Below are positions 10,389-44,373 of a DNA stretch of 64,000 nt, piece after piece. The DNA comes from Bacilli bacterium (GTDB lineage: Bacteria > Bacillota_I > Bacilli_A > RFN20 > CAG-826), in NCBI GenBank assembly GCA_017940265.1, contig JAGAYY010000025.1, positions 711 to 64,710 on the forward strand. Direction: 5' to 3'. The notes beneath the pieces are model-generated. The model was given only the letters and a program-made list of their open reading frames with translations. It ran no database searches and had not been told where the DNA came from. The first letter of the stretch is position 1, and each line of letters starts with the position of its first letter. A program made the position numbers and the translations under genes.

Positions 10389-10401
10389 CCTTATATATGT
10401 G
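10389..10401 (+). promoter_or_regulatory. CCTTATW-NN-TGTW box (ccttatatatgtg), rightward
   Basis: The GTG start of ORF 10399 forms the last 3 nt of the box. Confidence 0.4.
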
Positions 10402-10689
10402 ATTGACTATATTTTATATATAAGTACAGAGAATGATGTTTATGCATTATTAATAGGTGATATAATTATAGCAACACCAAGATTTACTAGGAAAAAGAAA
10501 ATTCATAATATTTCTAGGTTATTTTGCATTCATATGGTTGTTATTAGTAAGGATATACCAGAAAATATGAAAGAAATAGCCTCAGGGAAAATTAAGAGAT
10601 CTGATATTTATAATATTATCCGACGTAAGTTTAATCCGGATGAACCAGCTTATAAGATGTGGACAGATTATATAAATACTATTACATAA
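10399..10689 (+). CDS. hypothetical small protein (GTG start)
   Basis: 96-aa ORF, the first in a rightward series of small basic ORFs. Confidence 0.4.
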   Translation: MIDYILYISTENDVYALLIGDIIIATPRFTRKKKIHNISRLFCIHMVVISKDIPENMKEIASGKIKRSDIYNIIRRKFNPDEPAYKMWTDYINTIT

Positions 10690-10964
10690 GAGATCTCGGG
10701 TGTTCTAGATTTTGGATTTATAATCAAGAAAATGATAAAACCATATACATTCAGATAGAACATGGCCCTCTTAGGTATTGGAATAAGAAGATACATAATC
10801 CTATCAGACATGCTCTTCATTATTCTATTCCAAAGTATAGAAATCTTCCTGAAATAAAAATAGGCCAACTTCCAGGATTTACAGGATATATAGGAGAAAA
10901 AGATTTACAAAAATTATATACAGCATCAGGAAATGAATTACCAGTACAAAAGAACAGAATCTAA
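10659..10964 (+). CDS. hypothetical small protein
   Basis: 101-aa ORF. Confidence 0.35.
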   Translation: MDRLYKYYYIRDLGCSRFWIYNQENDKTIYIQIEHGPLRYWNKKIHNPIRHALHYSIPKYRNLPEIKIGQLPGFTGYIGEKDLQKLYTASGNELPVQKNRI

Positions 10965-11385
10965 TTATATAGTAGCACTTAAGTCTGGAAAATACTTACT
11001 TCTAACAAATAAAGGAAGAATATCAAATAAGAAACATAGATTTATCAGACTTAACAAATTTGATATTGAAGTAAAGTATTATGATGTTGAGGGTAAAACT
11101 TATATGATCAAGAAACCTCAACTTCTTAAGGTTCTGAGAAAAGGTGTCCCGGATGGAGAATCAACAAGAAAAGCTATTTTTGAAGAGTTTGGAACTGAGA
11201 TTTTTGGACTAACGGATTACGAAAGAAGATATTTTACTGCTAACTTCCGGAGTAGACAAAGATTAGAAGCATTCCTAAAAACATTAGGTAGAGGTGGAGG
11301 ATATTACCCATTTGAGGAAGGATCTATATACATTAACAGAACTAAAGTTAAGAAAGCCCTTAGAGAATTATATGTTACAGAGTAG
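10933..11385 (+). CDS. hypothetical protein
   Basis: 150-aa ORF. Confidence 0.4.
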   Translation: MNYQYKRTESNYIVALKSGKYLLLTNKGRISNKKHRFIRLNKFDIEVKYYDVEGKTYMIKKPQLLKVLRKGVPDGESTRKAIFEEFGTEIFGLTDYERRYFTANFRSRQRLEAFLKTLGRGGGYYPFEEGSIYINRTKVKKALRELYVTE

Positions 11386-11716
11386 CTATAGATGTAGAGT
11401 TGATCTTTTTCCAGAATTACGTCAACTTAATATTCTAGTGTATCTTGGAAATAGGGTTAAGGGAGATAGAACAAGAAAGGTAACTATTGAACTGTCTTCT
11501 CCTAGCTATAGACGAAAATCTAAAGGAATACCACCACCAAAAGATAAATATGTATTATCTCTAGGTTATGTGATGAAAGATAAACGTTTTCCAAGAACTA
11601 TGTCGCGTTCAGTCCTAGTAGATTTTATAAAACGAGCATTTGAAAGAAAAGATGGAATGCGTGAAAGAGCTTTGGAAATTGTTTATTCAGTGGATCCAAG
11701 CCCAATTGATATCTAA
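11372..11716 (+). CDS. hypothetical basic protein (start trimmed to MLQSSYRC)
   Basis: The tracked ORF 11294-11716 overlaps its upstream neighbour by 92 nt. An internal ATG at 11372 reduces the overlap to 14 nt. Confidence 0.35.
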   Translation: MLQSSYRCRVDLFPELRQLNILVYLGNRVKGDRTRKVTIELSSPSYRRKSKGIPPPKDKYVLSLGYVMKDKRFPRTMSRSVLVDFIKRAFERKDGMRERALEIVYSVDPSPIDI

Positions 11717-13011: not shown

Positions 13012-13920
13012 ATGGGAATTTCACTAGAATTATTAACAGATGAGGATATACTTGACTATTCTCGGGAAGCAGGTGAAGATCATGTCCTAACTTCTAAGTC
13101 GGACCTGAACCTGAAATATGATAATATTCGCCCTATCGTAGGTGGATGTTATGACCCGGTGATTTTTGGTAGTCCTTTCGCAGATCGTTGTATTTGCGGT
13201 AAGATAAGACAACCTTCGAAATCACCTTGCCCGAATTGTGGAGTAAGAGTATATTCGAAAGAGGAAGCACTTAGAAGATTTGCTCGTATTGAATTGCCAT
13301 TCTATTATCTAAATGACCTGAGATTTGACATTTTCAAGCAGAAATTTGATACTATTTTTAAAGACACAAAGATTATTCTCAACTTTAGTGGTGATGATCT
13401 TAAGCGTCTAGGATATAGTGCAAGAGGAGCTAAGAAAATGGGTATTAAGGTCTTCGATATGTGTCAATTCGATTATAATCCCGACACTAAAGAACTAACT
13501 GTCAGTGAATTTATTACTGACGAGTCTAAATGTTCTTATGAAGGAATAATGAAAATAATCGAAGAGTATTTCCCCGAACATTTGACGGAATACAAGAAAC
13601 TAATTAACCGTTATTATCTTGTACTCCCTGCTGTTATGCGCCCCTTCACACTTACCTATAGAGATGGTAAAAAACTGATGGGAACGCACAAACTCAGTAT
13701 TTGGTATTCTTCTATTATTTGGCTTTGTTGCGTCGAAGATAAGAAGGGTGCAGATAAATTAAATTATGAAACGGTTATGGAGTCGCTCAAAACACCGGGC
13801 GAACGAGTTAGATATACGGCTCTCTTACGCGCTTACCTAAATGCTGGTAAAAAAGAAGCCACCGAACTCCTTAATACCTCTAAGGAAAATCTAGCACGTG
13901 AACTCTATGCCGTACGTACT
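13012..13920 (+). CDS. rpoC: RNAP beta-prime homologue, exon 1
   Basis: An N-terminal zinc-ribbon region is present (FGSPFADRCICGKI...CPNCGV...RFARIELPFYY). The exon ends in U at 13920, which is paired to the intron guide sequence. Confidence 0.75.
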
Positions 13921-14733
13921 AAGCAGAATTTTTGGTACGTGAAAGTTACTAATAGACTTTCTACTTGAATCCAAATCAAGTAAATTTTGTGTATTGCTGG
14001 AACCTCGTGAATGGGGAATCAGCAGCTTTACTTAGGGATTATTATTAAATAAAAATAGAAGATTATGAGAATACCAAGACTCTCCGAAGTTTCTGATTTC
14101 TCTGATCTCCTAGACTTCGATTTCTTTGATAGATCTGAACGAATGAAAGAACTACATCGGGAAGGACGTTACATTGGTACTTCCAAGATTGGTGTCTGGA
14201 ATAGATCAGAAGAAAAAAGAGAAAGAATGAAACGGATCCGAGAACAGAATCAGAAAGATAAAACTTCTCGGGGATATGGATCAGAGTATCATCAGCGTCA
14301 AGCTAATCGTACGCTCCTTCATAATAAGTTTCAAGGACTCAAAGGTTTTATGTACCTGCTCGAGTTCCCTAAAACTATTAAAGTAGGATTCTCGAAAAAC
14401 TGGGAAAGACGTACGAGTAAACAAATAATTGGTGGTCGAGTAGTATTAATTATCTCCGGCCCTACCAATAATCTGGCTGACTTGGAATTTGATACTTTAG
14501 TCGAGTTTCAAGATTTTACACAGCTGGATGAAACAGGAACTAGATATACTGAGTTCTTAGATAAAAAGGTTGCGCCAGAAGTATATGATTTCTTGATGGA
14601 ACACGCAGTATCCGACCCTACCCTAAAAGTCGAGGTACAGAATCCTCTCTAAAAGTAAAGTTCAACGACTATGTACAAAACTCTCGTAGAAGATATAGTC
14701 TATGTTAGGAAAAGGAAACTTACCTAACTAAAG
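13921..14733 (+). mobile_element. group I intron 1 (813 nt) carrying an endonuclease ORF
   Basis: Core elements: P ttgctggaacc 13994-14004, Q gaatcagcagc 14016-14026, R gttcaacgactatg 14660-14673, S agaagatatagtcta 14688-14702. Guide ggtacgtg (13934-13941) pairs 8 bp with the exon end, with U.G at 13920. A P9-like hairpin gttagg/cctaac is followed by taaaG at 14733. Confidence 0.7.
14065..14652 (+). CDS. intron-encoded T5orf172/GIY-YIG-like homing endonuclease
   Basis: 195 aa. The C-terminal half FMYLLEF...IKVGFSKNWERR...TEFL resembles the T5orf172 (GIY-YIG superfamily) pattern. The ORF sits between the Q and R elements. Confidence 0.5.
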   Translation: MRIPRLSEVSDFSDLLDFDFFDRSERMKELHREGRYIGTSKIGVWNRSEEKRERMKRIREQNQKDKTSRGYGSEYHQRQANRTLLHNKFQGLKGFMYLLEFPKTIKVGFSKNWERRTSKQIIGGRVVLIISGPTNNLADLEFDTLVEFQDFTQLDETGTRYTEFLDKKVAPEVYDFLMEHAVSDPTLKVEVQNPL

Positions 14734-14977
14734 AAAAATTCCGCACGTTGCCCGATTGTACCTGACATGAATCTTAAGATTGATGAGCTGGGGATCCCGA
14801 GACATATAGGATACGAAATGCTTAGGGAGGGCTTCATTGAATATTTAATGAAGGAACTCAACTTCACTAAAAAAGAAGCAATGAAGGCAACTAAGGAAGA
14901 AGCAACAAATCCGGAGACTCAGAAATTGTTTAAAGAATATGCAGAAAAACAATATGTATTGGTGAATAGACAACCGT
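14734..14977 (+). CDS. rpoC: RNAP beta-prime homologue, exon 2
   Basis: The exon 1-2 junction reads LYAVRT|KNSARCPIVPD...DELGIP (compare LMGKRVDFSARTVI...GVP in Rpb1-type sequences). The exon ends ...VLVNRQP plus T. Confidence 0.7.
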
Positions 14978-15138
14978 TAATAGTGGCGGCTTATGGTAAA
15001 AACTTTAAGAAAAGTTCATTAAATGCTAGAATGGTTTAGACCTAATTAGCAGCTTAGAATAATAAATTCTAAGTTCAACGACTATATATGAACCCTAGAT
15101 GATATAGTCTACGTTATTCAGGAATGAAATAACTATAG
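14978..15138 (+). mobile_element. group I intron 2 (about 161 nt, no ORF)
   Basis: Core elements: P aatgctagaatgg 15022-15034, Q ctaattagcagc 15042-15053, R gttcaacgactatat 15073-15087, S agatgatatagtct 15097-15110. Hairpin gttatt/aataac is followed by tataG at 15138. A short P1 forms between ccgt and gcgg. Confidence 0.6.
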
Positions 15139-16129
15139 CGCTTCACGAATACTCTATTTTCTGTGTAAAAATTAAACTAGTGGATGATTATACATTACAT
15201 TTTCCACCGGCCATCTGTTCTCCGCTTAACGCTGATTTTGACGGCGATACGGTGTCTATTCAGCTTGTGCCTGAAGATGTAGCTGAGGACACATATCGAA
15301 AAATGTCACCAAGATACGTAACGTATTATAAGAAAAATGGTAAACCTATTCCTGAGATAAACCATGAGGTACTTAATGGTTTAGCAGTATTATCGGAATG
15401 GACACCAGAATCTGCGGAAGAACTTAAGGAACCAAGATATTATTATGATGATTATGTTAAACTCCTCAAGGATGTTGAAGTAAATAAAGTAATAAAAGTT
15501 GGTACTCCTATAGTATTTACGGGCCAAATAGGAAAAGTTAAGTATCAGTCTGAAATAACAACCTATGGAAAAATTCGACTTTCTAAGATTCTCGAAAAGA
15601 ATATAGATGATCTCGGATTCACAAAAGATAAATACACTCGATTCGATGCAAAAGCTGCTACTAAATTGAGTGCTTACCTATGTGATTTCCCCGAAGATGG
15701 AGTTGAAAAGAGACTTGAGCTCCAGAAACTTTGTCTAAGAGTTGTTAGTTTGGCAGGTGTAGTAACATTTGATTATTCTACACTCTACACAGATACTAAT
15801 ACAGAAACCTACAAGGAAATTTGTAAGATTGCAGATTCACCAGACCTAACAGATCAGCAAAAATTATGTCTCCTTACTGAAAAATACGAAAAGTATGAGA
15901 AGGAGATCGAAGCGAGTTTCTCAGACGACCTTAAGAACGAATTAAATCGAGCAGGTCGTGTTAAGATAAGTAGCATATCAGCCTTGAATATGCCCCAACT
16001 AATTATTAGTGGTGTAGATGAACTTCCTGTAATTACTAGAGGTTCATTGTTATCAGGGTTATCAGAAAAAGATATGATATTCCATTCTATTGAGAACCGC
16101 TCATTACAATCCATAAAAGTTAGTGGCGT
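15139..16129 (+). CDS. rpoC: RNAP beta-prime homologue, exon 3 (catalytic NADFDGD)
   Basis: The exon 2-3 junction gives NRQP|SLHEYSIF. LNADFDGDTVSIQL lies downstream. The exon ends ...ENRSLQSIKVSG plus GT. Confidence 0.75.
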
Positions 16130-16481
16130 ATATTACATCAACCCCGAATAGATGGTGCGCTACTTAATAAAAATGCAGATTATTGCTGGAAAGAATGAAA
16201 TTTTTAATCAGCAGCTTATTATTATGAACACCAAGTCAATAGTATCAATCTTAATAACAGTCGGAACAATCTTATCCGGAATTGGCCAGCTCATACACGA
16301 ACTGGAAAACTCGCGCAAAAAGATGTCCGACGATAAGAAACATATGTAATAAGTTCAACGACTATATACTGTACTTAGATGATATAGTCTAATTGGTTAT
16401 GGATGAACATAACCCATAAGGCGTCGGAAGAAGATATTGCGCGTGAATCTTCAGTTCGTCTCCTTATTGACCAAATTCGGG
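16130..16481 (+). mobile_element. group I intron 3 (about 352 nt)
   Basis: Guide gcgctact (16157-16164) pairs 8 bp with exon agtggcgt, with U.G at 16129. Core elements: P 16183-16193, Q 16206-16215, R gttcaacgactatat 16353-16367, S 16377-16390. Using G 16481 as the 3' terminus restores SGV|SLTRQ. A structurally canonical alternative 3' site lies at 16420. Confidence 0.55.
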
Positions 16482-16824
16482 ATCACTTACTCGTCAAATT
16501 TCCTTCCTCTTAAATAATTACGTTTATCAGGATGGAGAAGACATAGAAAATCCTGGTCTACTTATTCCAAGATACAAGGCACTCGGAAGAACTGCCCCAA
16601 ATGGAAAAGTATACCCAGAAACTTACTCAGGCAAACCAAATGAAGACGACCTTGTTCCTGTTAGATCTATCCTTACTAAAAAGACCGGAGACTTAAATGT
16701 AGTAACTCCAGACTTGATCGGTAAGAAATTTAAAGATTTTACATCAGGAGCAGCTATCGGACTATCATTTGCACGTTCACTTACCGAAGGAACAACTCAG
16801 GCCGCACTAGGTTTGAAACACGGT
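16482..16824 (+). CDS. rpoC: RNAP beta-prime homologue, exon 4 (bridge helix to trigger loop)
   Basis: SGVSLTRQISFLL matches the NSGYLTRRLVDV region. GAAIGLSFARSLTEGTTQAALGLKHG matches GEAIGxIAAQSIGEPGTQLTMRTFHxGG. The ORF track missed this exon because it is short. Confidence 0.6.
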
Positions 16825-18036
16825 CGGAAAAATGACTGCTGTGTATAAATAAGTAAAAATGCTGGAAGGGTAGAATAACCAAATCAGCAGCTAGCATAAA
16901 ATTATTGGGCTTCTTAAAATTAATATGACAGAATTAATAACCTATAAAGGAAAACAATATGAAGTAACTAATCCAGGAGAACTAATATATAGTACAACAC
17001 ATTATCTCAGAGGTTGTAGAAAAGATAAACGATTTGAAATAGTAGATCAACTTAATGGATGTTCTGAAATTCAATAATCATTCAAGTTGTGGTAGTAGAA
17101 TAAAATACCTACAAACTAAATACGGATTAACTGAACTAGATTATTATATAATAGTAGTCTGTAGAGGAGATGAATCAAAGTTACCTAGATGTACTTACGT
17201 AAATCCATATACGGATGAAATATGTAACAAACCTAAGAAATTTCGAACATTAACTCCAGGATTATATTAAAGAACCGGAAAACGAAAAAGAATATTTCAT
17301 GAAGGGTGTGAAGAGCATGCAAGTAATGCAGCAGCTCAAATAGCACAACGAGAAAATTATAAACGTGGCGTTACTAGTCTCCAAAAAGCAGATAGAAAAT
17401 CTAAAGTTTGGAGAAAAACTAAGTCTTCATGCCAAGAAACAAATGGAAGAAGGTAATAGCATCTTTTCTCCAGATGATATCAGAAATGAAAATCTGCCTA
17501 GTTGGAAAAATTTTCAAGTTTTCCCATCAATAAATCATTATAAAGATATCGCAATTTCTCTTGGTATGGATGAGTATAACTTAAGTATCGAGAATTGTAT
17601 ATTAATTGATAAAATAAATTATATACGGAGAGGGAATCCTGAAGATATTTGTATCTATTATTTAACCTATTTTGAAGAAACTAGTGATTACTTTAAACCA
17701 GGTGTTACAATAGACTTAAAAGAAAGATCTAATACTGATTACCATGGATATAAATATAAAACTCCAGAAATATTATTTACATCTAGTCGATTAATTATTG
17801 CAGAAATCGAATATGAGGTAAAATTAAAATTTAAAGATTTCATAGTTTTAGGAAATGAAGCTTTTGATATCAAACACAAAGATGAAATCTTAGAATATAT
17901 AGAAGAACGAATTAACTATTATAATAAAAACGAAGCTCAAGATAGTTAATTATAAAAAAAAATAAAATGCTAGTTCAAAGACTAATATGCTTACAAAGAA
18001 GATATAGTCTATCCTTTTATAGAAATATAAAAGCCG
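16825..18036 (+). mobile_element. group I intron 4 (about 1.2 kb) with a fragmented endonuclease gene
   Basis: Guide gctgtgt (16838-16844) pairs 7 bp with exon acacggt, with U.G at 16824. Core elements: P 16857-16870, Q 16881-16891, R gttcaaagactaat 17973-17986, S 17997-18010. A hairpin cttttata-GAAA-tataaaag follows. The 3' terminal G is 18036 (18033 is also in frame). Confidence 0.6.
16925..17949 (+). pseudogene. intron-encoded T5orf172/GIY-YIG-like endonuclease, apparently split over three frames
   Basis: The coding sequence is in three pieces: 16925-17077 (frame 2), 17055-17270 plus an in-frame continuation after TAA (frame 0), and 17365-17949 (frame 1). The last piece carries ICIYYLTYF...KPGVTIDLKER...GNEAF. 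Confidence 0.4.
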
Positions 18037-18888
18037 GAAGGTCATGAAAGAGTGCTCGATAAAATGGGCTACTTAAAAGCTGAGAAATCTTGCACGTTCA
18101 GAGAAGAAGGTAAGTGGATTATCCTTAAGGTTAGAGGAGGAGAACTTAAGTATCCAAGACCCGATAACCTAGTAACATTGGGAAAGGATAAGTTTGAGAA
18201 AGGTGAGAGTGTATGTTGTGCTTATAATACCTCATCTCCAATCAGTAAGCTTAATTCATTGATTAATTTAATGAGAGCTAGAGGTTCGGCAGGTTTGAGG
18301 TATTTTGAGAAGGATAATATCATTGTATCGGATTGCTATGCATATGAAGATGGGATTATCAAGTATGTAGAAACTGAAGGGGGAGATATTGAAGTTAAGA
18401 TTGGGTCTAAGACTTATCAATATAATCCTAACTGTATGTATTATTTCCCTGACGGTTCTGAAGTGAAGAAATTTGATAGAATCTGCTCTGGAGTGGTTAA
18501 TATGGGCCATGTGATTTCAGAGCTAGGAACAGATCTGAATGATATCTATCTTATCTTCCGTAAGCAATTCTATACTTTAACAGATGGTGGATTCTTGAAA
18601 AATGGATTCTCTGATCTTGGTTCGACGCAGGAAGAAATTATTGAAATTCTGTTCGCAGGATTGACCAATATTAACTATGATCCTAAGTCAGCTAAAATTC
18701 AGGATATCGATTATCAAGGAACACAGACTGCCGTACTCTCAAAGAAATCATTCTATACCGTACTGTCTTATGGATATAGTTCTAGAATCATCGGTAAAGC
18801 ACTCAAAGGCGAAGTTAATCTTGGTAATGATGTTATGACCGGTGTTATCTTAGGCTTACTCCTTGATAATAAACTTGATCAGGATTAG
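18037..18888 (+). CDS. rpoC: RNAP beta-prime homologue, exon 5 (C-terminal part)
   Basis: In frame with exon 4. The five exons total 3339 nt, which is 1113 codons including the TAG stop. Confidence 0.6.
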   Translation, partial: EGHERVLDKMGYLKAEKSCTFREEGKWIILKVRGGELKYPRPDNLVTLGKDKFEKGESVCCAYNTSSPISKLNSLINLMRARGSAGLRYFEKDNIIVSDCYAYEDGIIKYVETEGGDIEVKIGSKTYQYNPNCMYYFPDGSEVKKFDRICSGVVNMGHVISELGTDLNDIYLIFRKQFYTLTDGGFLKNGFSDLGSTQEEIIEILFAGLTNINYDPKSAKIQDIDYQGTQTAVLSKKSFYTVLSYGYSSRIIGKALKGEVNLGNDVMTGVILGLLLDNKLDQD

Positions 18889-19120: not shown

Positions 19121-19473
19121 GTGGAGATAATACTTACTACAACATTATCCTGACTTACGAGATACCATATAATGTATTAGATAGTCAGGACCCTAGTATA
19201 ATTCAAGCCCGGGATAACCTATATGAGAGGTTGGCTAATATAATTCCCCCTAAGTATGAACTTTTCTCGGTTAAACTTGTATTATACCAACTCAAGGATA
19301 CTTATAATTTCTTAGTTACTTACAATGCTTTCTTTAGATCTACCTCGGGATTACCAATGAGTGAATATGTTGAGGCTCGAGATCTAAAGGACTTAATAAA
19401 TAGTGAACTTGAGGAATTTTTCAACTCAGTAGATTGTGAATATAAACAATTGAATATTAAATCTTTAGTATGA
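19117..19473 (+). CDS. hypothetical protein
   Basis: 118-aa ORF with ATGA overlaps on both sides. Confidence 0.45.
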   Translation: MSGDNTYYNIILTYEIPYNVLDSQDPSIIQARDNLYERLANIIPPKYELFSVKLVLYQLKDTYNFLVTYNAFFRSTSGLPMSEYVEARDLKDLINSELEEFFNSVDCEYKQLNIKSLV

Positions 19474-21841
19474 GCAACTTTAATGAGTATTTCAGAAACA
19501 AAGGTGCCAGTTTGATGGTAGAGAGATTCTTCGGAAATGCAGATACTTTTAATCCAAATGTCAAAATTGCTACTATGACTCACTCTATTGTTGATGAGCC
19601 AGAACAACCAGCTTCATATTATGTTGAAAATGGTCTGACTGCAACACATAAGGTGAGAATTGAGTATACAACTACTGACGCTCCGGATGAAATAAAGTAT
19701 TCTGAATTCGAAGTCCCTAAAGAAATAGATGGCGTCTTCATTATTGAGGGAGCCTATCGAATCGCAACCAACAAAATGGGATCGGATTATGACTGCCGTA
19801 TTAGAATGTCTGGATCAGGAGATTATATAATTAACTTCGACTATGACAGAAGATACGACATTAATAAACGTATTCTGAAAATCAAGAGGACTAATCCAGA
19901 ACTCAGATTAATTGACCGAGATGTTAAACTAAAGTATGAGGAAATAGATGCTGCAACAGGTGAAACTAAGGAATTACTGAAACTCTCCGAAGATCAGATT
20001 AAGAAATTCCAGATTAAACTTAACATCGACTATAAACCTGAATATATTAGTACTAGGTTAATTAATGATTGCTTGGCCTTTGGAGATGATAGACTTAAAG
20101 ACTTGATTATAGACAAAACGATAGAAAGTGTACCGACTAGTTTTATAAAACATATCTTTAGATCGAATAACGGTAGAAACTATAATAGTGCTCGTCGTCA
20201 TATTTCGAGCTATTTTGCAAAATATGGAAAACTATCGGAGCAAGTTTCTGTTATAACCACAATGTCTATCCGATTCTTTAAGGGAAGTTCAGATTCAAAG
20301 GGAGATACCGGCTTACAAGTTCCTCCAGGTATTAACGCTGCGAACTTACAAAGCTTGGGAAGTAAAATTACAGTACCAGCAACAGTAGCTTTTAATAGCA
20401 CATTCACTGATTTGATCGATATAGCAGATACACCGATAAATAATAATACCAACCTACAGAACGCACTGACCGTATCTACATCGATTACTGATGATGGTAT
20501 TATATTTCAGGCCTACACATTAGATTGGCAAAGAGTTCCTATTAAGTATATTGATTACTTAAATGCGAAAGTATGTGCCTCTGAGTATGTAGATTACAAA
20601 ACGCATCAAATTAAGCCGAATGAAAATGGTGAGGTTGAGGTTAAGTACAGAATGAGACGCAAAATGGTCAAGGTAGATGAAATTGAATTAATAGATCTAC
20701 ACCCCGATTTCCGTCTCTCTGAAGCTACTCGTCGAATTCCATTTATTAATTCAACTGACTCTGTTCGTATTTCAATGGGCGCATCGATGCTAAAACAAGC
20801 AATCCCATTGGTAAATGCAGAACGAGCACTTGTCGGTACTGGTCATTCAGAAGAACTGAAAGACAATGTACTAAATGAAAAATTTAAATACGACAAAGGA
20901 AAGGTTAAAGATATTACGGAGTTTGATATTGAAATAGAACTTCCGGATGGTCAGATAATCAAACATCCTCGTCGAACAGCAATCCAATCTCAGAATGATG
21001 TTTGTGTCTATTCTCAGCCTAAGGTTAAGATAGGACAGAAACTTAAGAAGGGAGATATTATTGCTGGTGCCACTAACTTAGAGGTAGATACTTATAAAAA
21101 TGGTATCAATGCTCTTGTACTATTCCATGCCTATCACGGTTTAGTTAATGAAGATGCACTTGTTGTGTCTGAATCATTCGCTAATAAATGTGTTCACTAT
21201 AGTATCATTGATTTACAGTTGAACATTAAGAATACTGCAGCCCTTAAATGGATTGCTCCGATAGGTACAAAAGTTAAGTCTGGGGATAGTGTTGTTGGTG
21301 TTTATAAGACGAATCGATTAGATGACGTAAATAAAGCTCTTGCCGAAAAATTAGGAGGACTTTTTGGTGAAGGAGGTAAGGATATCACTGAATATACTAC
21401 CGAAGATTTCCTTAAGGTACCAAATAACATTGACGAAGCTTATATATCCGATGTCTTAATTCAGGAACAAAAAAATCCTAAAATTCCTAAGTCAGTTAAA
21501 ACCCCCGACTATCGATTTTCACAAACTTCTCGTGAGGTTGCAGCCGAGTACGAAAAGGGAATGGATAGAAAAGTAATCTATGACCGTTTCCCAGAGTATG
21601 TAGCCTCCGATCGTCTACGCCCAATTAATATGAGCCGTGATGAATATAAAGTTACTTTTACCGTCAGAATAAGACTAATCAAGAGAACTATCCTTATGGT
21701 TGGTTCAAAAGTTACTAATTCTTATGGTGGAAAGGGTGTGATCTCGATGGTTAAACCAGATGAATTAATGCCTATAATGGTTGACAAAAACACAGGCAAA
21801 CAGCATCGTGTCGAAGTCATAATGAACCCATATTCCACGAT
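19470..21841 (+). CDS. rpoB: RNAP beta homologue, exon 1
   Basis: RRIPFINSTDSVRISMGASMLKQAIPL matches [38 protein letters not shown]...ELMP matches GDKxAGRHGNKGVxS...DMP. The exon ends ...MNPYSTI. Confidence 0.75.
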
Positions 21842-22699
21842 AAACTAGCGATTTGTCGTGATTAAATTGTATAAAAATGCTGGAAAGGTTAATCCCAATC
21901 AGCAGTATAGATTAGTATTGTAAGTTAGTATGTCTGTCCTGAACTTAACAAAAATAAAAGCATATGGAAACAGATAAAAACTTATGGTGGTATGAGAGAT
22001 TATATAAACAAATCACCGAACGAGGAAAACTACGTGGAGATGATAAATCAAAATTAGAAGGATACTATGAAAGGCACCACATCGTTCCTAGATGTGTTGG
22101 AGGTGGAGACGAACCAGAAAATCTAGTCCTCCTAACCTTCAGAGAACATGTCTTATGTCATATTATTCTCACTCGATTATATCCACGAAACTTACATATC
22201 TTGTTAGCAGCAAATATCTTGTTGCGAATAGACAAGAAAGACACAAATGGTAATATTATTAAGGTAACTATTAAACGATCTAGAGTTGCCGAAGACATAA
22301 AACTTAAATACGCAGAGGGTAAAACTAGAGAAGAAAGAATCAAAGTTTCTACCCCAGAATTAGGTCGTCGTTATTCTAAAGAAACGAGAGAAAAATTTAG
22401 GGCAGCTAGATTAGGGAAGAAACACCCAGGACATCCAGGCTTAGGAACAAAACCCAAGCCAGTCAAAGATCCAGCAGGTGTTATATTCCGAAGTCTTAAT
22501 CGCTGTTCAAAGGCATATTGCGTTAGTATTTCCACAGTTAAAGGTTGGATTACGAGAAGACAAGGATTTACTTACGTAGAAGATGATGAGTAAGACGACT
22601 GACCTACAATACTTAATCTATATTCAAAGACTATATATACAACTGTCCCAGATTACAGATGATATAGTCTAGCCTAAGGTGCAAACCTATAGGATATTG
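21842..22699 (+). mobile_element. group I intron 5 (858 nt) with an HNH endonuclease ORF
   Basis: Guide gtcgtg (21855-21860) pairs 6 bp with exon cacgat, with U.G at 21841. Core elements: P 21875-21888, Q 21897-21906, R attcaaagactatat 22612-22626, S agatgatatagtct 22647-22660. A hairpin is followed by atattG at 22699. Confidence 0.7.
21964..22593 (+). CDS. intron-encoded HNH homing endonuclease
   Basis: HHIVPRCVGGGDEPENLVLLTFREHVLCH is an HNH motif. NUMOD-like repeats (SKETREKFRAARLGKKH) lie C-terminal to it. Confidence 0.75.
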   Translation: METDKNLWWYERLYKQITERGKLRGDDKSKLEGYYERHHIVPRCVGGGDEPENLVLLTFREHVLCHIILTRLYPRNLHILLAANILLRIDKKDTNGNIIKVTIKRSRVAEDIKLKYAEGKTREERIKVSTPELGRRYSKETREKFRAARLGKKHPGHPGLGTKPKPVKDPAGVIFRSLNRCSKAYCVSISTVKGWITRRQGFTYVEDDE

Positions 22700-23492
22700 A
22701 AATCGCAAAATTTCAGGCGTTATTATGGAACAGTCACTCGGAAACTGTGTCCATCGTATATATGATCTGGTTGAAGAGTATAAAAGAACTAAAACGGGTC
22801 AAAAGAAAATCATGCCCCTAATTGAAAAATACTATCCAGGACGTTACACTGGAATGGATGTTTTAGATTTCATTAAGTTACATGAATCAAAACCAATCGA
22901 GGAAGTATATTATCTCGAGGTAGGATGTTATTCTGATTTTACACCAGAAATAGTCGACCAATGGATGGAAGAACTTGGTGTAGAGAGTCAGTCAGAAATC
23001 CTAATGCCTGAGGTAGAACTTTCTGATCTGGATGAACTTAAGAATAATCTAAGCCCAGAAGAGTATGATGAGATTAGAAAGGATATGATTGGAAAATTTA
23101 GACCTGTAGATAAGAAGCTTCAGTGTGGTTGGATGCTTCTTGAGGAACTCTATCATATTCCAAGCTATTCGAATAAAGTAACAACAAGTATGGCAGGAAT
23201 CGACATTAACTCTAAGAAGGATGAGCCTATCTTGGGTAGAGGTCGATATAGAATTACTGGTCAGAAAATTGGTGAAGATGAACTTAGTGCTTTGTTATCA
23301 AGAAATGCTAGAGAATTTATTCAAGGTACTAGAAAAGATACCGCAAGAGAAGATAATCAGCTATTCTTGAATAATCTATTGAGTCTTGGTTTAACAATTT
23401 CGGATAGTGAAGGATTCAATCAAGGTGGTTCTAGTCTTAAGAGCGACCTTAAGAATATGAAGACTAAATTTAGATTAAAGAATCAGAAATGA
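22700..23492 (+). CDS. rpoB: RNAP beta homologue, exon 2
   Basis: The junction gives NPYSTI|NRKISGVIMEQSLG, matching [20 protein letters not shown]. The two exons total 3165 nt (1055 codons). Confidence 0.7.
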
Positions 23493-24124
23493 ACGACGTA
23501 ATTAATAGCTGTCTTATGTGGGCAGTTAACTTGGAGACCCCTGTGAGCCTCGGTTGCCTTTTTGATTCAGAAGATCTAAAGGACACCGGAATAGAGATAG
23601 ATTCACATATTACTCTTCTTTATGCTCAAGGAAAGGTTATTGACAGAAAAAACTTATTAGAAGAAATTCATGATATCCTAGGTCCTGATGATTATAATTG
23701 GATCTTAGAGTTTATTCAGGGAGACTCGAGTTATAGAATTTTGGATGTCTTTGACCTTGGATGTTTTGAGAATGATTCTGACTATTTAGTACTTAAACTT
23801 AGAAAAGAAACTGAAGTCTATAAAGCTTTAAGCCTAATAAATAAAAGTCTAAGTATTAAATACGGAGTTACATCTGATTTTGCTCAGTATACTCCACATA
23901 TAACGTTGGCTGAACTACAACCAGGTACTGTGAAAAAATACTTAGAATCAGATGTAGTCAGACTCGTTCTTGAAGACAGTGTATATAATTTTGAGGACTT
24001 GTTTATATCATATGGAACTGCAAATGAACCAGTTGATAGAAAACAATATTATCTCACTAATTATAAATGCTTAGATCGCTTTTTTAGATTACTCCGGCTG
24101 AAAAAAGAAATAGATGAGCTCTAA
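23489..24124 (+). CDS. 2H phosphoesterase superfamily protein (LigT / 2',3'-cyclic phosphodiesterase-like)
   Basis: Two HxT motifs are present at the expected spacing: DSHITLLYA and TPHITLAEL. Confidence 0.65.
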   Translation: MNDVINSCLMWAVNLETPVSLGCLFDSEDLKDTGIEIDSHITLLYAQGKVIDRKNLLEEIHDILGPDDYNWILEFIQGDSSYRILDVFDLGCFENDSDYLVLKLRKETEVYKALSLINKSLSIKYGVTSDFAQYTPHITLAELQPGTVKKYLESDVVRLVLEDSVYNFEDLFISYGTANEPVDRKQYYLTNYKCLDRFFRLLRLKKEIDEL

Positions 24125-25210: not shown

Positions 25211-27784
25211 ATGGAAGACTTAAAATTTACAGTTTCAGATGAACTTAAAGTTATACTGAGAAATGCTAATCAAATGGCAAAATCAAATAGCGATAAGGAA
25301 CTGACTGTCGAACTTATTACGTATCTTATCCTCAAACGATATATAAACGAGGAGGGAGACCTAGAGAGTAATATTATTAAGGGTGTTCTAGATGATTACA
25401 AAGATTCAGCAAAGAAAGAAATGCTTGAAGCTTGTAAGAAAGAATATGAGAGAACAGCCAAGAAAACATCATTATTCTCAAGATTTGAAAATTATACATT
25501 CTCGGAAGGATTAGAGGAAACCTTCGAACGTACTAATACAATAATGTCTATTAAAAATGAAATAGAAAGTACGGAGGGTAATATTATAACTACCGAGCAT
25601 CTCTTAGTCTACGGAATTCTACATCATAAATGTAAATTGGTAGACCTCCTTAGTGGAACTTATCAATTTAATCATATAAGATTCATGGCTCAGCAAGTAT
25701 GTGAGTCAATCTTTAGTGAACCAGAACTTAAGGAGAAGAGAATAGAAACTCCCCCAGAAAAAGAGGATACGACTGAGGAAGATGATGATAAGTTTGAAAG
25801 AGCCGCCGAAGGACAAGATGCAATCTCCGTCCGAAAACATGATCCCAATTCGAAAACTCCATATCTAGATCAATTTGGCCTTGATATGACACAAAAGGCA
25901 AAAGATGGAGGATATGACCCAGTAATCGGTAGAGATAAGGAGATTTCACAAGTCATCGAGGTATTATGTTGTCGAAAGAAAAATAATGCAGCTCTTCTTG
26001 GTGAGGCTGGTGTCGGTAAAAGTGCACTAGTAGAAGGTCTTGCTCAGAAAATAGCGAACGATGATGTACCTATGGAGCTTAGAGGAAAACAAATATTCTC
26101 GGTTTCCACCACAGATCTTCAGGCAGGTACAATCTATAGAGGACAACTTGAGGAAAGAATTCAGAAGTTATGTGAGGAGGTCAGAGATAATCGAGATATC
26201 ATTCTCTATATCGACGAATTCCATCAAGCTGTTTCCGATAGTTCCTCTAATATTGCCCAAATGATGAAACCTTCTTTAGCACGTGGAGAACTCAATGCGA
26301 TTGTTTCTACGACTGTATCTGAATATAGAAGATATGTTGAGAAAGATGCCGCTCTTAAAAGAAGATTTGAACCTATCTACTTAGAAGAGCCTAACACCGA
26401 GGAAACTGTTAAGATCTTGGAAGGATTAGCTCCTGGATATGCTAAATTCCACCATGTTCGTTTTGGTGAAGGGGTTCTTGAAAAGTGTGTGGAATGGTCT
26501 GGACGTTATATAACAGATAGACAATTCCCAGATAAAGCTATTGGAATTATGGATATGGCTGCTTCGGTAACTAAACTCCAAAATCCATTAGATTATGAGA
26601 AGAGAACCGAACTACAGGAAGCTATTGATAAACTTAACTCACAAGCTGACTCCGCCATTGAGAATTCAGAATTTGAAAGGGCGTCTAAGATCAGGGATGC
26701 TAGAATTAAAATAGAATCCGAACTTAAAGATCTCATTCAGGCTCAAGAAGAGAACCAAGAGGGATGGCCAGAAGTTACTATTAATGAAGTTTCCTCAGTA
26801 ATCTCTAAATTATCTGGAGTTCCTATTGACAAAATAATGAACTCTGATATGGGTAAGGTTAGAGAAATGAAAGCTACCTTAGGGAAACAAGTAATTGGAC
26901 AGGATAAAGCTATTGAAGAATTATCTGTAGCCCTTCAGAGAAATATCTTAGGTTTACGTGATCCGAAAAAACCTATCGCATCATTCCTTTTAGTGGGACC
27001 GACTGGAGTAGGTAAAAGCTTGGTCTCTAAGGTTCTCGCCCAAGAATTTTTTGGATCAGATAACTCTTTGGTTACTATTGCTTGTTCTGAATATATGCAA
27101 GAATGGGCAGAGTCTAAGTTATTGGGCTCGGCTCCCGGTTATGTTGGATTCGAAAATACAGAACCGCGCCTCTATGTTCTTAAGCGTCGGCCTTTCTGTG
27201 TTCTCTTAATTGATGAAATTGAGAAATCACACAGTAACTTATATAATATTTGGTTGAATATGCTTGAAGAAGGAGAAGTAACCTTGAGTAGCGGCGAGAA
27301 AGTTAGCTGTAGAGATTGTATTATTATCTTCACAGGTAATGTCGGAACTAAATCTCTCGAACTTAAGTCTGGGGATCTTGGATTTGGCACTAAGAGTAAA
27401 GAAGATAAGAAAAAGACCGACGTTGCTACAGTGATGAAAGAAGTTAAAAAAGAATTTCGGCCCGAGTTTTTAAATAGACTTTCTGGAATTATAGTATTTA
27501 ATCCCTTGGGGAACGAGGAACTTCTGCAGATCTTCGACTTAGAATTAGGTAAGCTTCAGGAACGACTCTCTGGTAAATATAAGATCGGAGTTAGTAAAAA
27601 GCTCAAATCTTGGATAGTGGATAAAGCTGAACCGCAATATGGAGCTAGATCCTTACAGAGATTAATTGTCGAGTATGTAGAACAAGAAATCTGTAAAAAA
27701 CTACTTGATGAAGATCCTGGCGACAAGAAAAAAGTAAGTCTTGACCTTGGAAAAGATGAGGTAATTAAAGTTAAGTTTTCATGA
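25211..27784 (+). CDS. Clp/Hsp100 double-ring AAA+ unfoldase (ClpC/ClpB-like)
   Basis: NBD1 has GEAGVGKSALVEGLA and ILYIDEFH. NBD2 has GPTGVGKSLVSKVLA and VLLIDEIEK. A UVR-like linker (FERASKIRDARIKIE) and an LGF tripeptide (GDLGFG) in NBD2 are present. Confidence 0.8.
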   Translation: MEDLKFTVSDELKVILRNANQMAKSNSDKELTVELITYLILKRYINEEGDLESNIIKGVLDDYKDSAKKEMLEACKKEYERTAKKTSLFSRFENYTFSEGLEETFERTNTIMSIKNEIESTEGNIITTEHLLVYGILHHKCKLVDLLSGTYQFNHIRFMAQQVCESIFSEPELKEKRIETPPEKEDTTEEDDDKFERAAEGQDAISVRKHDPNSKTPYLDQFGLDMTQKAKDGGYDPVIGRDKEISQVIEVLCCRKKNNAALLGEAGVGKSALVEGLAQKIANDDVPMELRGKQIFSVSTTDLQAGTIYRGQLEERIQKLCEEVRDNRDIILYIDEFHQAVSDSSSNIAQMMKPSLARGELNAIVSTTVSEYRRYVEKDAALKRRFEPIYLEEPNTEETVKILEGLAPGYAKFHHVRFGEGVLEKCVEWSGRYITDRQFPDKAIGIMDMAASVTKLQNPLDYEKRTELQEAIDKLNSQADSAIENSEFERASKIRDARIKIESELKDLIQAQEENQEGWPEVTINEVSSVISKLSGVPIDKIMNSDMGKVREMKATLGKQVIGQDKAIEELSVALQRNILGLRDPKKPIASFLLVGPTGVGKSLVSKVLAQEFFGSDNSLVTIACSEYMQEWAESKLLGSAPGYVGFENTEPRLYVLKRRPFCVLLIDEIEKSHSNLYNIWLNMLEEGEVTLSSGEKVSCRDCIIIFTGNVGTKSLELKSGDLGFGTKSKEDKKKTDVATVMKEVKKEFRPEFLNRLSGIIVFNPLGNEELLQIFDLELGKLQERLSGKYKIGVSKKLKSWIVDKAEPQYGARSLQRLIVEYVEQEICKKLLDEDPGDKKKVSLDLGKDEVIKVKFS

Positions 27785-44097: not shown

Positions 44098-44373
44098 ATG
44101 ATAAAACAATTAAAAGTAGTTGGTTATAAAAAACAATATTGTTGGTCTTCGCGAAGAACAAAGATCGGAATATGGGAAGATGATGTTGGTGGTGTGTTAG
44201 TAGCCGTAGCATGTAGATCTTTTGGTCTGTGCTTAAGCGCTATCTCAGAAAACATCGAAGAATTAAGGCAAGATTTCAATGATGCCTTAGAAATTCTGAC
44301 TTTCCGTTTCCCAGATAAACCCGCGAGGAAATGGTTAAGAAAAATTATTCAAACAAATTATAAACAATTATGA
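44098..44373 (+). CDS. hypothetical protein
   Basis: 91-aa ORF with an ATGA overlap with the ATPase gene. Confidence 0.4.
   Translation: MIKQLKVVGYKKQYCWSSRRTKIGIWEDDVGGVLVAVACRSFGLCLSAISENIEELRQDFNDALEILTFRFPDKPARKWLRKIIQTNYKQL

What the first reader, a model, noticed from the sequence alone, without database searches (positions are those of the whole stretch)
19470..23492. Beta subunit gene interrupted by an HNH-encoding group I intron in the conserved NPxxxxxR(M)N segment
- ORF 19470-21848 stops right after ...MNPYSTIN.
- ORF 22725-23492 continues, from 22700, with NRKISGVIMEQSLG. Together these reconstitute the bacterial [20 protein letters not shown] region.
- The 858-nt gap has P/Q elements (21875-21906) and R/S elements (22612-22660).
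- A 6-bp P1 forms between cacgaU (ending at 21841) and gtcgtg (21855-21860), and the intron ends in G at 22699.
- A complete HNH ORF sits between Q and R.
- The two exons sum to 3165 nt (1055 codons).
- The intron core is nearly identical to the four beta-prime introns, which suggests one intron family spreading within the RNAP operon.
Basis: partly seen in the sequence, partly recalled or inferred. Interest (0 to 1): 0.65.

Follow-up and report, generated by a model that had tools for sequence, protein, structure and literature searches.

The report
HNH group I intron in phage rpoB
A huge phage's RNA polymerase beta-subunit gene is interrupted, inside its most conserved active-site stretch, by a compact self-splicing group I intron that carries an HNH homing endonuclease gene. 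It is a real but ordinary example of a kind already described in phage RNA polymerase genes.

Summary
Joining 19470-21841 to 22700-23492 gives a 1054-aa beta subunit. Its junction (…VIMNPYSTI|NRKISGVIMEQSLG) matches uninterrupted homologues of 1053-1058 aa (up to 84% identity) residue for residue.

The 858-nt insert (21842-22699) has every sequence and structure hallmark of a group I intron:
- a U·G pair at the 5' splice site in a 6-bp P1;
- a contiguous 6-bp P10;
- P3-P9 in the canonical order, with the P3/P7 pseudoknot;
- a terminal G.

A 17-bp P6 stem closes the loop that holds the 209-aa HNH/NUMOD3 ORF.

The fold is supported by covariation in 22 related copies and in 66 further distinct copies. 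A model built only from this family picks out two of the three Rfam-called introns of phage Twort. Rfam's own group I model misses this family.

Relatives carry same-site introns whose guide sequence changes in step with the exon. They also carry introns at four or more neighbouring sites.

One claim is overstated. "Nearly identical to the beta-prime introns" is true only of the 45 nt of P/Q/R/S elements (89-93% identity); the whole cores are 53-61% identical.

Splicing and endonuclease activity are inferred, not shown.

Precedents are the ΦPA3 gp210 intron in a phage RNA polymerase beta gene and the abundant group I introns of Jug gut phages. This is a new member of a known kind.

The parts
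19470..21841 (+). Exon 1 of the RNA polymerase beta-subunit gene (790 codons plus 2 nt of an Ile codon)
   Evidence: Pfam RNA_pol_Rpb2_6, E 4.5e-15. The exact 792-aa read-through product is found on 18 independent contigs. Full-length homologues align from residue 1.
21836..21841 (+). P1 5' strand (last six exon bases, CACGAU; U21841 is the splice-site U)
   Evidence: Pairs with GUCGUG at 21855-21860. In same-site introns the exon and guide change together: AACUAU/GUAGUU in L003 and UACUAU/GUAGUA in L008.
21842..22699 (+). Group I intron, 858 nt (about 176 nt of ribozyme plus a 682-nt P6 loop that holds the ORF)
   Evidence: Boundaries are fixed by comparison with the uninterrupted allele L002, together with the U…G rule. 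The mini-intron folds into P1, P4-P9 with z = -6.75.
21849..21860 (+). Internal guide sequence CGAUUU-GUCGUG (P10 strand 21849-21854, P1 strand 21855-21860)
   Evidence: It is the complement of the ligated exons CACGAU|AAAUCG, with a single G·U at the splice site.
21867..21873 (+). P3 5' strand (UUGUAUA)
   Evidence: Pairs with 22636-22642. Across 25 copies, matched P3 strands average -4.46 kcal/mol against -1.79 for mismatched strands; permutation p < 1e-4.
21878..21904 (+). P4-P5 hairpin domain (P element UGCUGG 21878-21883; P5 GG/CC at 21887-8 and 21894-5; Q element UCAGCA 21899-21904)
   Evidence: RNAalifold recovers P4 and P5. P4 shows a GC-to-AU double change in 4 of 22 copies and 24 of 66 copies. 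All four P5 pairs covary.
21906..21922 (+). P6 5' strand (17 nt), starting right after Q
   Evidence: Pairs with 22605-22622, with one bulged U. In every family member P6 runs from just after Q to just before R. Four of the five P6 pairs show all four Watson-Crick pair types in each alignment; the fifth shows three of the four in the first alignment.
21964..22593 (+). Intron ORF: 209-aa HNH homing endonuclease with a NUMOD3 motif and a C-terminal helix-turn-helix-like tail
   Evidence: phrog_655 'homing endonuclease', E 1.3e-32. Pfam HNH (0.0041) and NUMOD3 (0.0092) are both below the curated cut-offs. It is 49% identical to the ORF of the same-site intron in L003. The HNH residues H38, H39, N53 and H62 are invariant in six homologues. 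A profile of these homologues matches the HNH domain of PDB 6me0, E 2.4e-5.
22605..22622 (+). P6 3' strand
22623..22634 (+). R element: J6/7 plus the P7 5' strand (UUCAA-AGACUAU)
   Evidence: Pairs with 22664-22670. The five P7 pairs are 100% paired across the family.
22636..22642 (+). P3 3' strand (UAUACAA); with P7 it forms the group I pseudoknot
22643..22658 (+). P8 hairpin (CUGU / ACAG, 8-nt loop)
   Evidence: Sequence and the minimum-free-energy fold. Family-wide covariation of P8 was not tested.
22659..22671 (+). S element: J8/7 plus the P7 3' strand (AUGAU-AUAGUCU)
22673..22693 (+). P9 hairpin (CCUAAGGU / ACCUAUAGG, with a GCAA loop)
22699..22699 (+). Terminal guanosine (omega-G) at the 3' splice site
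   Evidence: It is the only G that gives an in-frame join identical to the uninterrupted alleles.
22700..23492 (+). Exon 2 of the beta-subunit gene (the first six bases, AAAUCG, form P10)
   Evidence: NRKISGVI, upstream of the first ATG, is conserved in uninterrupted homologues. The C-terminal GQKIGEDE aligns with Thermus beta GQRFGEME.

Best explanation
The 858 nt at 21842-22699 are a mobile group I intron in the beta-subunit gene of a phage-encoded multisubunit RNA polymerase.

Splicing (inferred). After transcription the RNA folds into a compact core of P1, P3-P9 and P10, with no P2. The guide sequence CGAUUUGUCGUG holds both exons. An external guanosine attacks after U21841. The freed exon 1 then attacks after G22699. 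This joins ...ACGAU to AAAUCG... and restores one 1054-aa beta subunit with an intact NPYSTINRKISGVIMEQSLG segment.

Mobility (inferred). The large loop of P6 carries a 209-aa HNH endonuclease gene. By analogy with other HNH intron endonucleases, the enzyme would cut or nick the intron-less allele of a co-infecting related phage near the insertion site. Repair from the intron-bearing copy would then spread the intron.

Shown here: the anatomy, the exact restoration of the reading frame, covariation of the helices, homology of the core to the Twort introns, and the presence/absence polymorphism of the intron.

Not shown here: the splicing itself and the endonuclease activity.
For: 1. The spliced protein matches uninterrupted 1053-1058-aa homologues at up to 84% identity over 100% of its length, and they read ...VIMNPYSTINRKISGVLMEQSLG across the junction. 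The DNA of one such allele (L002) fixes the junction.
2. Solved AR9 and Thermus beta subunits align without a gap across the junction, as does a Staphylococcus jumbo-phage beta subunit.
3. All the helices are in place, and P1 plus P10 form one contiguous 12-nt guide. The mini-intron folds into them with z = -6.75.
4. Covariation in 22 family cores: 96.8% of cells are paired against 76.4% when shuffled and 25-45% when slid; covariation score 0.513 against 0.125; 0 of 500 shuffles reach the observed value.
5. Covariation in 66 further distinct copies that were not used to build the model: 93.8% against 74.0% paired; score 0.493 against 0.122.
6. The P3 pseudoknot is supported by a matched versus mismatched strand test, p < 1e-4.
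7. P1 covaries with synonymous exon changes in three same-site introns.
8. Model R1, built only from this family, gives its two best hits in the 130.7-kb Twort genome (E 4e-5 and 9e-4). Both hits lie on introns that Rfam RF00028 calls at 100.9 and 97.4 bits.
9. The ORF is an HNH homing-endonuclease homologue.
10. The intron-bearing allele occurs on 18 contigs from several assemblies, so it is not an assembly artefact.
Against: - Rfam's group I model gives no hit on this intron or on the four beta-prime introns, even at E <= 10.
- No RNA data are available, so splicing is not demonstrated.
- The Pfam HNH and NUMOD3 scores are below the curated cut-offs.
- The ORF is 37-77 aa shorter than its homologues and lacks some of the central repeats, so the endonuclease could be impaired.
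- The covariation alignments were either made from ORF-trimmed constructs or fitted to the model. Both choices favour the structure somewhat.
- P8 and P9 were not tested by covariation.
Confidence: 0.9

Rival explanations
1. The beta subunit is split. The two ORFs are translated separately from unspliced RNA as a 792-aa N-terminal piece and a 255-aa C-terminal piece. A free-standing HNH endonuclease gene lies between them, as with the naturally split beta and beta-prime genes of phiKZ-like and AR9-like phages.
For: Jumbo-phage RNA polymerase genes are often split (PMC7598289). ORF 22725-23492 has its own ATG.
Against: - The eight conserved codons NRKISGVI lie upstream of that ATG, with no in-frame ATG, GTG or TTG, and would be lost.
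- The break would fall two residues before the invariant Arg of NPxxxxxR(M)N.
- Most full-length relatives are uninterrupted at this point.
- The spacer has a complete, covarying ribozyme core and a guide sequence complementary to both exon ends, which a simple intergenic spacer would not need.
Confidence: 0.03
2. The intron is decaying. The group I ribozyme still splices, but the HNH gene is no longer active, so the element is inherited vertically and no longer homes.
For: The ORF is shorter than its homologues (209 aa against 246-286) and lacks central NUMOD3-type repeats. An ORF-less intron sits at the same site in L008, which shows that loss of the ORF does happen in this family.
Against: The ORF is open along its whole length. 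It keeps the invariant HNH residues and the conserved C-terminal DNA-binding tail. Close relatives at 79-84% protein identity lack the intron, which suggests recent gain or loss.
Confidence: 0.25
3. The gene is dead. The core is damaged so that splicing fails, and this beta gene is a pseudogene in a defective phage.
For: There is no direct evidence of splicing, and Rfam gives no hit.
Against: - No helix is broken, and the guide sequence is perfect.
- Both exons are fully open and 79-84% identical to intact homologues.
- The same allele is found on 18 contigs, six of them 0.2-1 Mb long.
- No other Rpb2-type gene turned up among the seven other ORFs outside the beta and beta-prime genes that were scanned against Pfam.
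Confidence: 0.04

Closest known systems
ΦPA3 gp210 intron (Birkholz et al., Science 2024; PMC11620839)
   Same: An HNH homing endonuclease is encoded in a putative group I intron that interrupts the beta-subunit gene of a phage-encoded multisubunit RNA polymerase at a highly conserved site. This is the same kind of element in the same kind of gene.
   Different: - Lineage: ΦPA3 is a nucleus-forming Pseudomonas chimallivirus. The phage here is related only distantly to known phages; the best match in the phage collection, to a Staphylococcus jumbo phage (vB_StaM_SA1), is about 25% identical.
- Site: after the Asp-Asp equivalent to E. coli RpoB D675 in ΦPA3, against the NPxxxxxR(M)N segment here.
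- Gene: ΦPA3's is a virion-polymerase subunit.
- Evidence: gp210's nicking activity and competitive benefit were shown by experiment; nothing has been tested here.
Group I introns of Jug (jumbo gut) phages (Sci Adv 2026; PMC12880540)
   Same: These are huge gut phages of 360-402 kb with about 18.5 short (about 206 nt) group I introns per genome, plus many HNH genes, splitting essential genes. Splicing of 37 of 76 predicted introns was confirmed by metatranscriptomes. The family found here is abundant on IMG/VR contigs of 230-400 kb, and homologues of this beta subunit sit on contigs of 345-404 kb.
   Different: The paper's main text names terL, nrdD and the DNA polymerase gene as interrupted, not the RNA polymerase genes. 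The window has 35.5% G+C against 27-30% for Jug phages, so it is probably a relative rather than a Jug phage. Identity between the two intron families was not tested, because the paper's supplementary tables are not held.
Staphylococcus phage Twort orf142 group I introns
   Same: They share core elements: AAUU..GGAA, AAUC..AG, CAACGACUA and UAGUCU. The family model R1 finds two of them as its best hits in the whole Twort genome, at the places Rfam RF00028 calls. They are ORF-less compact phage introns, several in one gene.
   Different: The Twort introns are longer (about 225-290 nt), sit in a different gene, and score 64-101 bits with Rfam, whereas this family scores nothing. That the Twort introns self-splice and belong to subgroup IA2 is my recollection of Landthaler and Shub 1999 (cited in PMC11620839) and was not tested here.
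T4 td intron with I-TevI, and SPO1/Bastille DNA-polymerase introns with I-HmuI and I-BasI
   Same: These are phage group I introns in conserved parts of essential genes that carry a homing endonuclease gene in a peripheral loop. The SPO1-type enzymes are HNH nickases (PMC12908238).
   Different: The genes and intron subfamilies differ. There is only a weak sequence trace to the I-TevI DNA-binding domain (E 0.43). I-HmuI did not appear in the search of solved structures.

Membership tests
Group I intron | 5' splice site after a U that forms a U·G wobble in P1 with an internal guide sequence | tested here: met
   CACGAU(21841) pairs with GUCGUG (21855-21860). The guide covaries with the exon in three same-site introns.
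Group I intron | Intron ends in a guanosine (omega-G), and P10 can align the 3' exon | tested here: met
   G22699. AAAUCG (22700-05) pairs with CGAUUU (21849-54), which is contiguous with the P1 strand. P10 is not conserved in the two other same-site introns.
Group I intron | Core helices P3-P9 in the canonical order, with the P4-P6 and P3-P8 domains and the P3/P7 pseudoknot | tested here: met
   P4, P5, P6 and P7 are recovered by RNAalifold with covariation. P3 is supported by the matched versus mismatched strand test, p < 1e-4. P8 and P9 are seen in this sequence only.
Group I intron | Conserved P, Q, R and S sequence elements | tested here: met
   AAAAUGCUGGAAAGG, CAAUCAGCAG, UUCAAAGACUAU and GAUAUAGUCUA occur in the right order at five sites only. 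The resemblance to the classical consensus is from memory. Homology to the Twort introns was tested.
Group I intron | Match to the curated Rfam model RF00028 | tested here: not met
   No hit at the gathering score or at E <= 10. This is a limit of the detector rather than a defining property: the same model finds the Twort orf142 introns, and the family model links those to this family.
Group I intron | Guanosine-dependent self-splicing that ligates the exons | not testable with these tools
   There are no RNA data. Exon ligation at the predicted sites would restore the conserved protein exactly.
HNH homing endonuclease (intron-encoded) | His-Asn-His catalytic motif of the beta-beta-alpha-metal fold | tested here: met
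   The motif is ERHHIVPRCVGGGDEPENLVLLTFREH. H38, H39, N53 and H62 are invariant in six homologues. phrog_655, E 1.3e-32. Profile match to the HNH domain of 6me0, E 2.4e-5. Pfam HNH scores 17.7 bits, below its 21.4 cut-off.
HNH homing endonuclease (intron-encoded) | Site-specific cleavage or nicking of the intron-less allele near the insertion site | not testable with these tools
   Intron-less alleles exist (L002 and P0001-P0005).

The most novel reading that the evidence does not exclude
The 15 or so codons that encode MNPYSTINRKIAGVL may be a multi-site homing hot spot for one family of very small group I introns.

Across relatives, at least five insertion points within about 35 nt are occupied, and further sites lie at the upstream GGKGV motif:
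- after the Pro codon;
- one nucleotide later;
- after STI (the site in this window);
- after NR;
- after GV.

Tandem introns there are separated by micro-exons of only 18 and 31 nt.

This would point to repeated retargeting of related HNH endonucleases and guide sequences, and so to intron-mediated interference between co-infecting huge gut phages of the kind shown for ΦPA3. Such heavily invaded but unsplit beta and beta-prime genes could also be the intermediates proposed for the origin of the split polymerase genes of jumbo phages.
Probability: 0.25. Interest if true: 0.55.

Novelty: new member of a known kind. Interest (0 to 1): 0.3.

Why it matters
- Annotation: without splicing, gene callers report a truncated 792-aa beta subunit and an orphan 255-aa protein. 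Recognising the intron restores a single-chain beta subunit of an unusual, unsplit phage multisubunit RNA polymerase.
- Detection: Rfam's group I model is blind to a family with hundreds of copies in huge-phage contigs. Intron surveys based on Rfam will therefore undercount these introns.
- Biology: this is a second, independent case of an HNH-carrying intron in a phage polymerase beta gene, at a different conserved site from ΦPA3. That makes the ΦPA3 competition mechanism worth testing in gut phages.

None of this changes current understanding of group I introns.

Tried and rejected
- Rfam scans of the whole window at the gathering score, and of 21700-22850 and 13800-18200 at E <= 10, gave only two tRNAs and chance hits.
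- Megablast of the gene and blastn of the ORF-trimmed intron against 50,697 phage records found nothing. A protein search found only distant RNA-polymerase beta homologues at 23-34% identity, the best being Staphylococcus jumbo phages.
- Pfam gave nothing for exon 2 alone or for the three beta-prime exon ORFs that were scanned.
- The MAFFT alignment did not keep P3, P8 and P9 in register, so RNAalifold could not score them. P3 was tested with a separate duplex-energy test instead. P8 and P9 remain untested across the family.
- The supplementary tables of the Jug phage paper are not held, and the protein clusters carry no source names. I therefore could not link this phage, or this intron family, to the Jug phages.
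- An intein was rejected: there are in-frame stops at 21846 and 22698 and no intein domains.
- A group II intron was rejected: the intron ORF matched only HNH, NUMOD3 and homing-endonuclease families, with no reverse-transcriptase hit, and the Rfam scans gave no group II match.
- I tried to fix the boundaries of beta-prime intron 1 by eye and could not find a convincing U·G/omega-G pair, so I left it unresolved.


Full report
**Observation.** ORF 19470-21848 encodes 792 aa that end ...RVEVIMNPYSTIN*. ORF 22725-23492 can be read upstream in frame to 22701 as NRKISGVI, where a TGA at 22698-22700 stops it. Joining 19470-21841 to 22700-23492 gives 3165 nt, which is 1054 aa plus a stop. The junction reads ...VIMNPYSTI|NRKISGVIMEQSLG, and the Ile codon is split AT|A. 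Exon 1 matches Pfam RNA_pol_Rpb2_6 (E 4.5e-15). In the spliced protein the match extends across the junction and improves (8.9e-17; profile positions 5-281 instead of 4-262).

**The junction is correct.**
- A search of about 5.8 billion proteins found more than 100 full-length, uninterrupted homologues of 1040-1072 aa that cover 100% of the spliced protein. Identity ranges from 84% (P0001) through 81% and 79% down to about 51%.
- The homologues read ...RVEVIMNPYSTINRKISGVLMEQSLG... across the junction.
- The DNA of the closest uninterrupted allele (L002) aligns codon for codon with the joined exons. The repeated A's leave four possible cut points, and only one leaves a U at the end of exon 1 and a G at the end of the insert: 21841|21842 and 22699|22700.
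- Solved structures agree. The best match is the AR9 non-virion polymerase beta fragment (7s00_C), followed by Thermus beta. Both alignments run across the junction without a gap. Counting back along the printed Thermus alignment places the split Ile two residues before the invariant Arg of [10 protein letters not shown]. The C-terminal GQKIGEDE aligns with GQRFGEME.
- A Staphylococcus jumbo-phage beta subunit is also continuous at this point.

**Anatomy of the insert.**

| Element | Coordinates and sequence |
|---|---|
| P1 | exon CACGAU 21836-41 with GUCGUG 21855-60 |
| P10 | CGAUUU 21849-54 with exon AAAUCG 22700-05 |
| P3 | 21867-73 with 22636-42 |
| P4 | 21878-83 with 21899-904 |
| P5 | 21887-8 with 21894-5 |
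| P6 | 21906-22 with 22605-22 (17 bp, one bulge) |
| P7 | 22628-34 with 22664-70 |
| P8 | 22643-46 with 22655-58 |
| P9 | 22673-80 with 22685-93, GCAA loop |
| Terminal G | 22699 |

- The P1 and P10 strands together make one 12-nt guide. It is complementary to the ligated exons except for the G·U pair at the splice site.
- There is no P2.
- P6 closes the 682-nt loop that holds the ORF, so the ribozyme proper is only about 176 nt.
- With the loop replaced by GAAA, the minimum-free-energy fold reproduces P1, P4, P5, P6, P7, P8 and P9. The energy is -55.9 kcal/mol against -29.4 ± 3.9 for shuffles, z = -6.75.

**The fold is supported by comparison.**
- The four core motifs occur together at five places in the window, all on the + strand and all in the beta-prime and beta genes. 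They recur many times in related loci, giving 25 distinct copies from the window and five loci.
- I aligned 22 cores, with the ORF loops replaced by GAAA. On this alignment RNAalifold recovers P4, P5, P6 and P7, and 11 of the 20 pairs show double changes.
- Pair counting on that alignment gives 96.8% standard pairs, against 76.4% after shuffling and 25-45% when partners are slid. The covariation score is 0.513 against 0.125, and 0 of 500 shuffles reach it.
- P3 crosses P7, so it cannot be predicted by that method. I tested it by duplex energy instead. Each intron's own two strands average -4.46 kcal/mol, against -1.79 for strands taken from different introns. None of 10,000 permutations reached the observed mean.
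- The family model R1 found 200 full-length ORF-less copies in those 634 kb. Of the best 150, 66 are distinct. They give 93.8% paired against 74.0%, and a covariation score of 0.493 against 0.122. This alignment was fitted to the model, which favours the structure. The slid controls and the mix of pair types in P6 still argue that the signal is real.

**Link to established group I introns.**
- Rfam finds nothing here.
- As a cross-check I fetched the whole genome of phage Twort. Rfam RF00028 finds three introns there, at L011 16606-17506, with scores of 64-101 bits.
- R1 contains no Twort sequence. Its two best hits in the 130.7 kb, on both strands, fall on two of those three introns (E 4e-5 and 9e-4), with the P, Q, R and S elements aligned.
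- The family is therefore related to the introns that Rfam calls group I in Twort, even though the Rfam model cannot see it directly.
- R1 also gives weak hits (E about 0.2) in two gaps between Twort ORFs that Rfam does not call. I did not follow these up.

**The ORF.** The 209-aa product matches PHROG 655 'homing endonuclease' (E 1.3e-32). It also matches Pfam HNH and NUMOD3 weakly, below their cut-offs. It is 49% identical to the ORF in the same-site intron of L003 and 29% identical to the ORF of a neighbouring-site intron in L004. In an alignment of six such intron ORFs, H38, H39, N53, H62 and H66 are invariant, as is a C-terminal motif P..G.I..S. A profile of that alignment matches the HNH domain of a group II intron maturase (6me0, E 2.4e-5) and faintly matches the I-TevI DNA-binding domain. 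The window's protein lacks some central repeats that the others have.

**Distribution.**
- The closest relatives lack the intron.
- The exact 792-aa exon-1 product, followed by the HNH ORF, is found on 18 contigs from several assemblies. Six of these contigs are 0.2-1 Mb long.
- Same-site introns occur in L003 (with an HNH ORF) and in L008 (ORF-less). Their P1 helices change in step with synonymous exon changes: CACGAU/GUCGUG, AACUAU/GUAGUU and UACUAU/GUAGUA.
- Other relatives carry family members at neighbouring positions: after the Pro codon (L009), one nucleotide later (L004), after NR (L009) and after GV (L004). There are further sites around the GGKGV motif.
- L009 has six introns in its beta gene, and an 18-nt micro-exon (3008-3025) lies between two of them.

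**The overstated claim.** The beta intron is 89-93% identical to the four beta-prime introns only over the 45 aligned P/Q/R/S positions. Identity is 53-61% over the trimmed cores and 36-44% elsewhere. Several copies from other phages are as close or closer. The five introns are one family, but there is no sign of recent spread inside this operon.

**Mechanism.** The best-supported reading is the textbook one:
1. The gene is transcribed through the intron.
2. Guanosine-initiated self-splicing, guided by P1 and P10, restores the beta mRNA.
3. The HNH protein is translated from the P6 loop.
4. The protein cuts or nicks intron-less alleles during mixed infection, and the intron is copied in by repair.

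The anatomy, the restoration of the frame, the covariation and the polymorphism are shown. Catalysis and homing are inferred from the family.

**Comparison with what is known, and novelty.**
- The kind of element is already described. ΦPA3 gp210 is an HNH endonuclease in a putative group I intron that splits a phage RNA polymerase beta gene after the residue equivalent to E. coli D675. It nicks the ΦKZ homologue and gives a 3.7-fold competitive advantage (PMC11620839).
- Jug gut phages carry about 18.5 short group I introns per genome, and 37 of 76 predicted introns were confirmed by metatranscriptomes. The interrupted genes named in the main text are terL, nrdD and the DNA polymerase gene (PMC12880540).
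- The present case differs from ΦPA3 in phage lineage and insertion site, and it belongs to a very compact, P2-less family that Rfam misses.
- A review notes the proposal that split jumbo-phage polymerase genes arose through intron mobility (PMC7598289). Unsplit genes riddled with introns, as here, fit that idea but do not test it.

**Verdict.** The finding is real and correctly interpreted, and it is a new member of a known kind.

Noticed in passing
window 14978-15138: A 161-nt ORF-less intron of the same family splits the beta-prime motif NRQP|SLH (U at 14977, G at 15138). From memory it is smaller than the roughly 205-nt Azoarcus intron, which is usually cited as the smallest self-splicing group I intron. 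It is the top hit of the family model (104 bits), though it was part of the model's training set.
   Followed up: partly
window 13995-14702, 16184-16391, 16860-18011: Three further intron cores of the family lie in the beta-prime gene (13012-18888). Their ORFs (14065-14652, 16152-16349, 17055-17270, 17365-17949) have no PHROG match. The exact splice sites were not resolved.
   Followed up: partly
L009 2540-4060 (IMG/VR contig of 382,539 bp); L004 8373-9630: The same conserved stretch of the beta gene holds tandem introns in relatives. They are separated by an 18-nt micro-exon in L009 (3008-3025, TATTCAACAATCAACCGT) and a 31-nt micro-exon in L004. L009 has six family introns in its beta gene.
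   Followed up: partly
The family model found 200 full-length ORF-less copies in 634 kb, mostly on contigs of 230-400 kb. Rfam RF00028 does not detect the window's copies of this family.
   Followed up: partly
L012 8680-8855 and 9530-9709 (phage Twort): The family model gives weak hits (E about 0.2) in two gaps between ORFs that Rfam does not call. They may be the published Twort ribonucleotide reductase introns, but I did not check this.
   Followed up: no
window 23489-24124: The ORF directly downstream of the beta gene has a weak Pfam match to the anti-CBASS protein Acb1 (E 1.2e-4, below the cut-off). An ORF of similar size sits in the same position in L002 and L009, and the L009 product resembles the window's.
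   Followed up: no
window 25211-27784; 44370-46880; 46982-50464: The window encodes a ClpB-like double AAA+ protein and a P-type cation ATPase, both unusual cargo for a phage. It also encodes a family A DNA polymerase that is uninterrupted here.
   Followed up: no
window 10399-11716: A run of short overlapping + strand ORFs lies upstream of the polymerase genes. It may be a frameshifted or otherwise interrupted gene. The family model finds no intron there.
   Followed up: no
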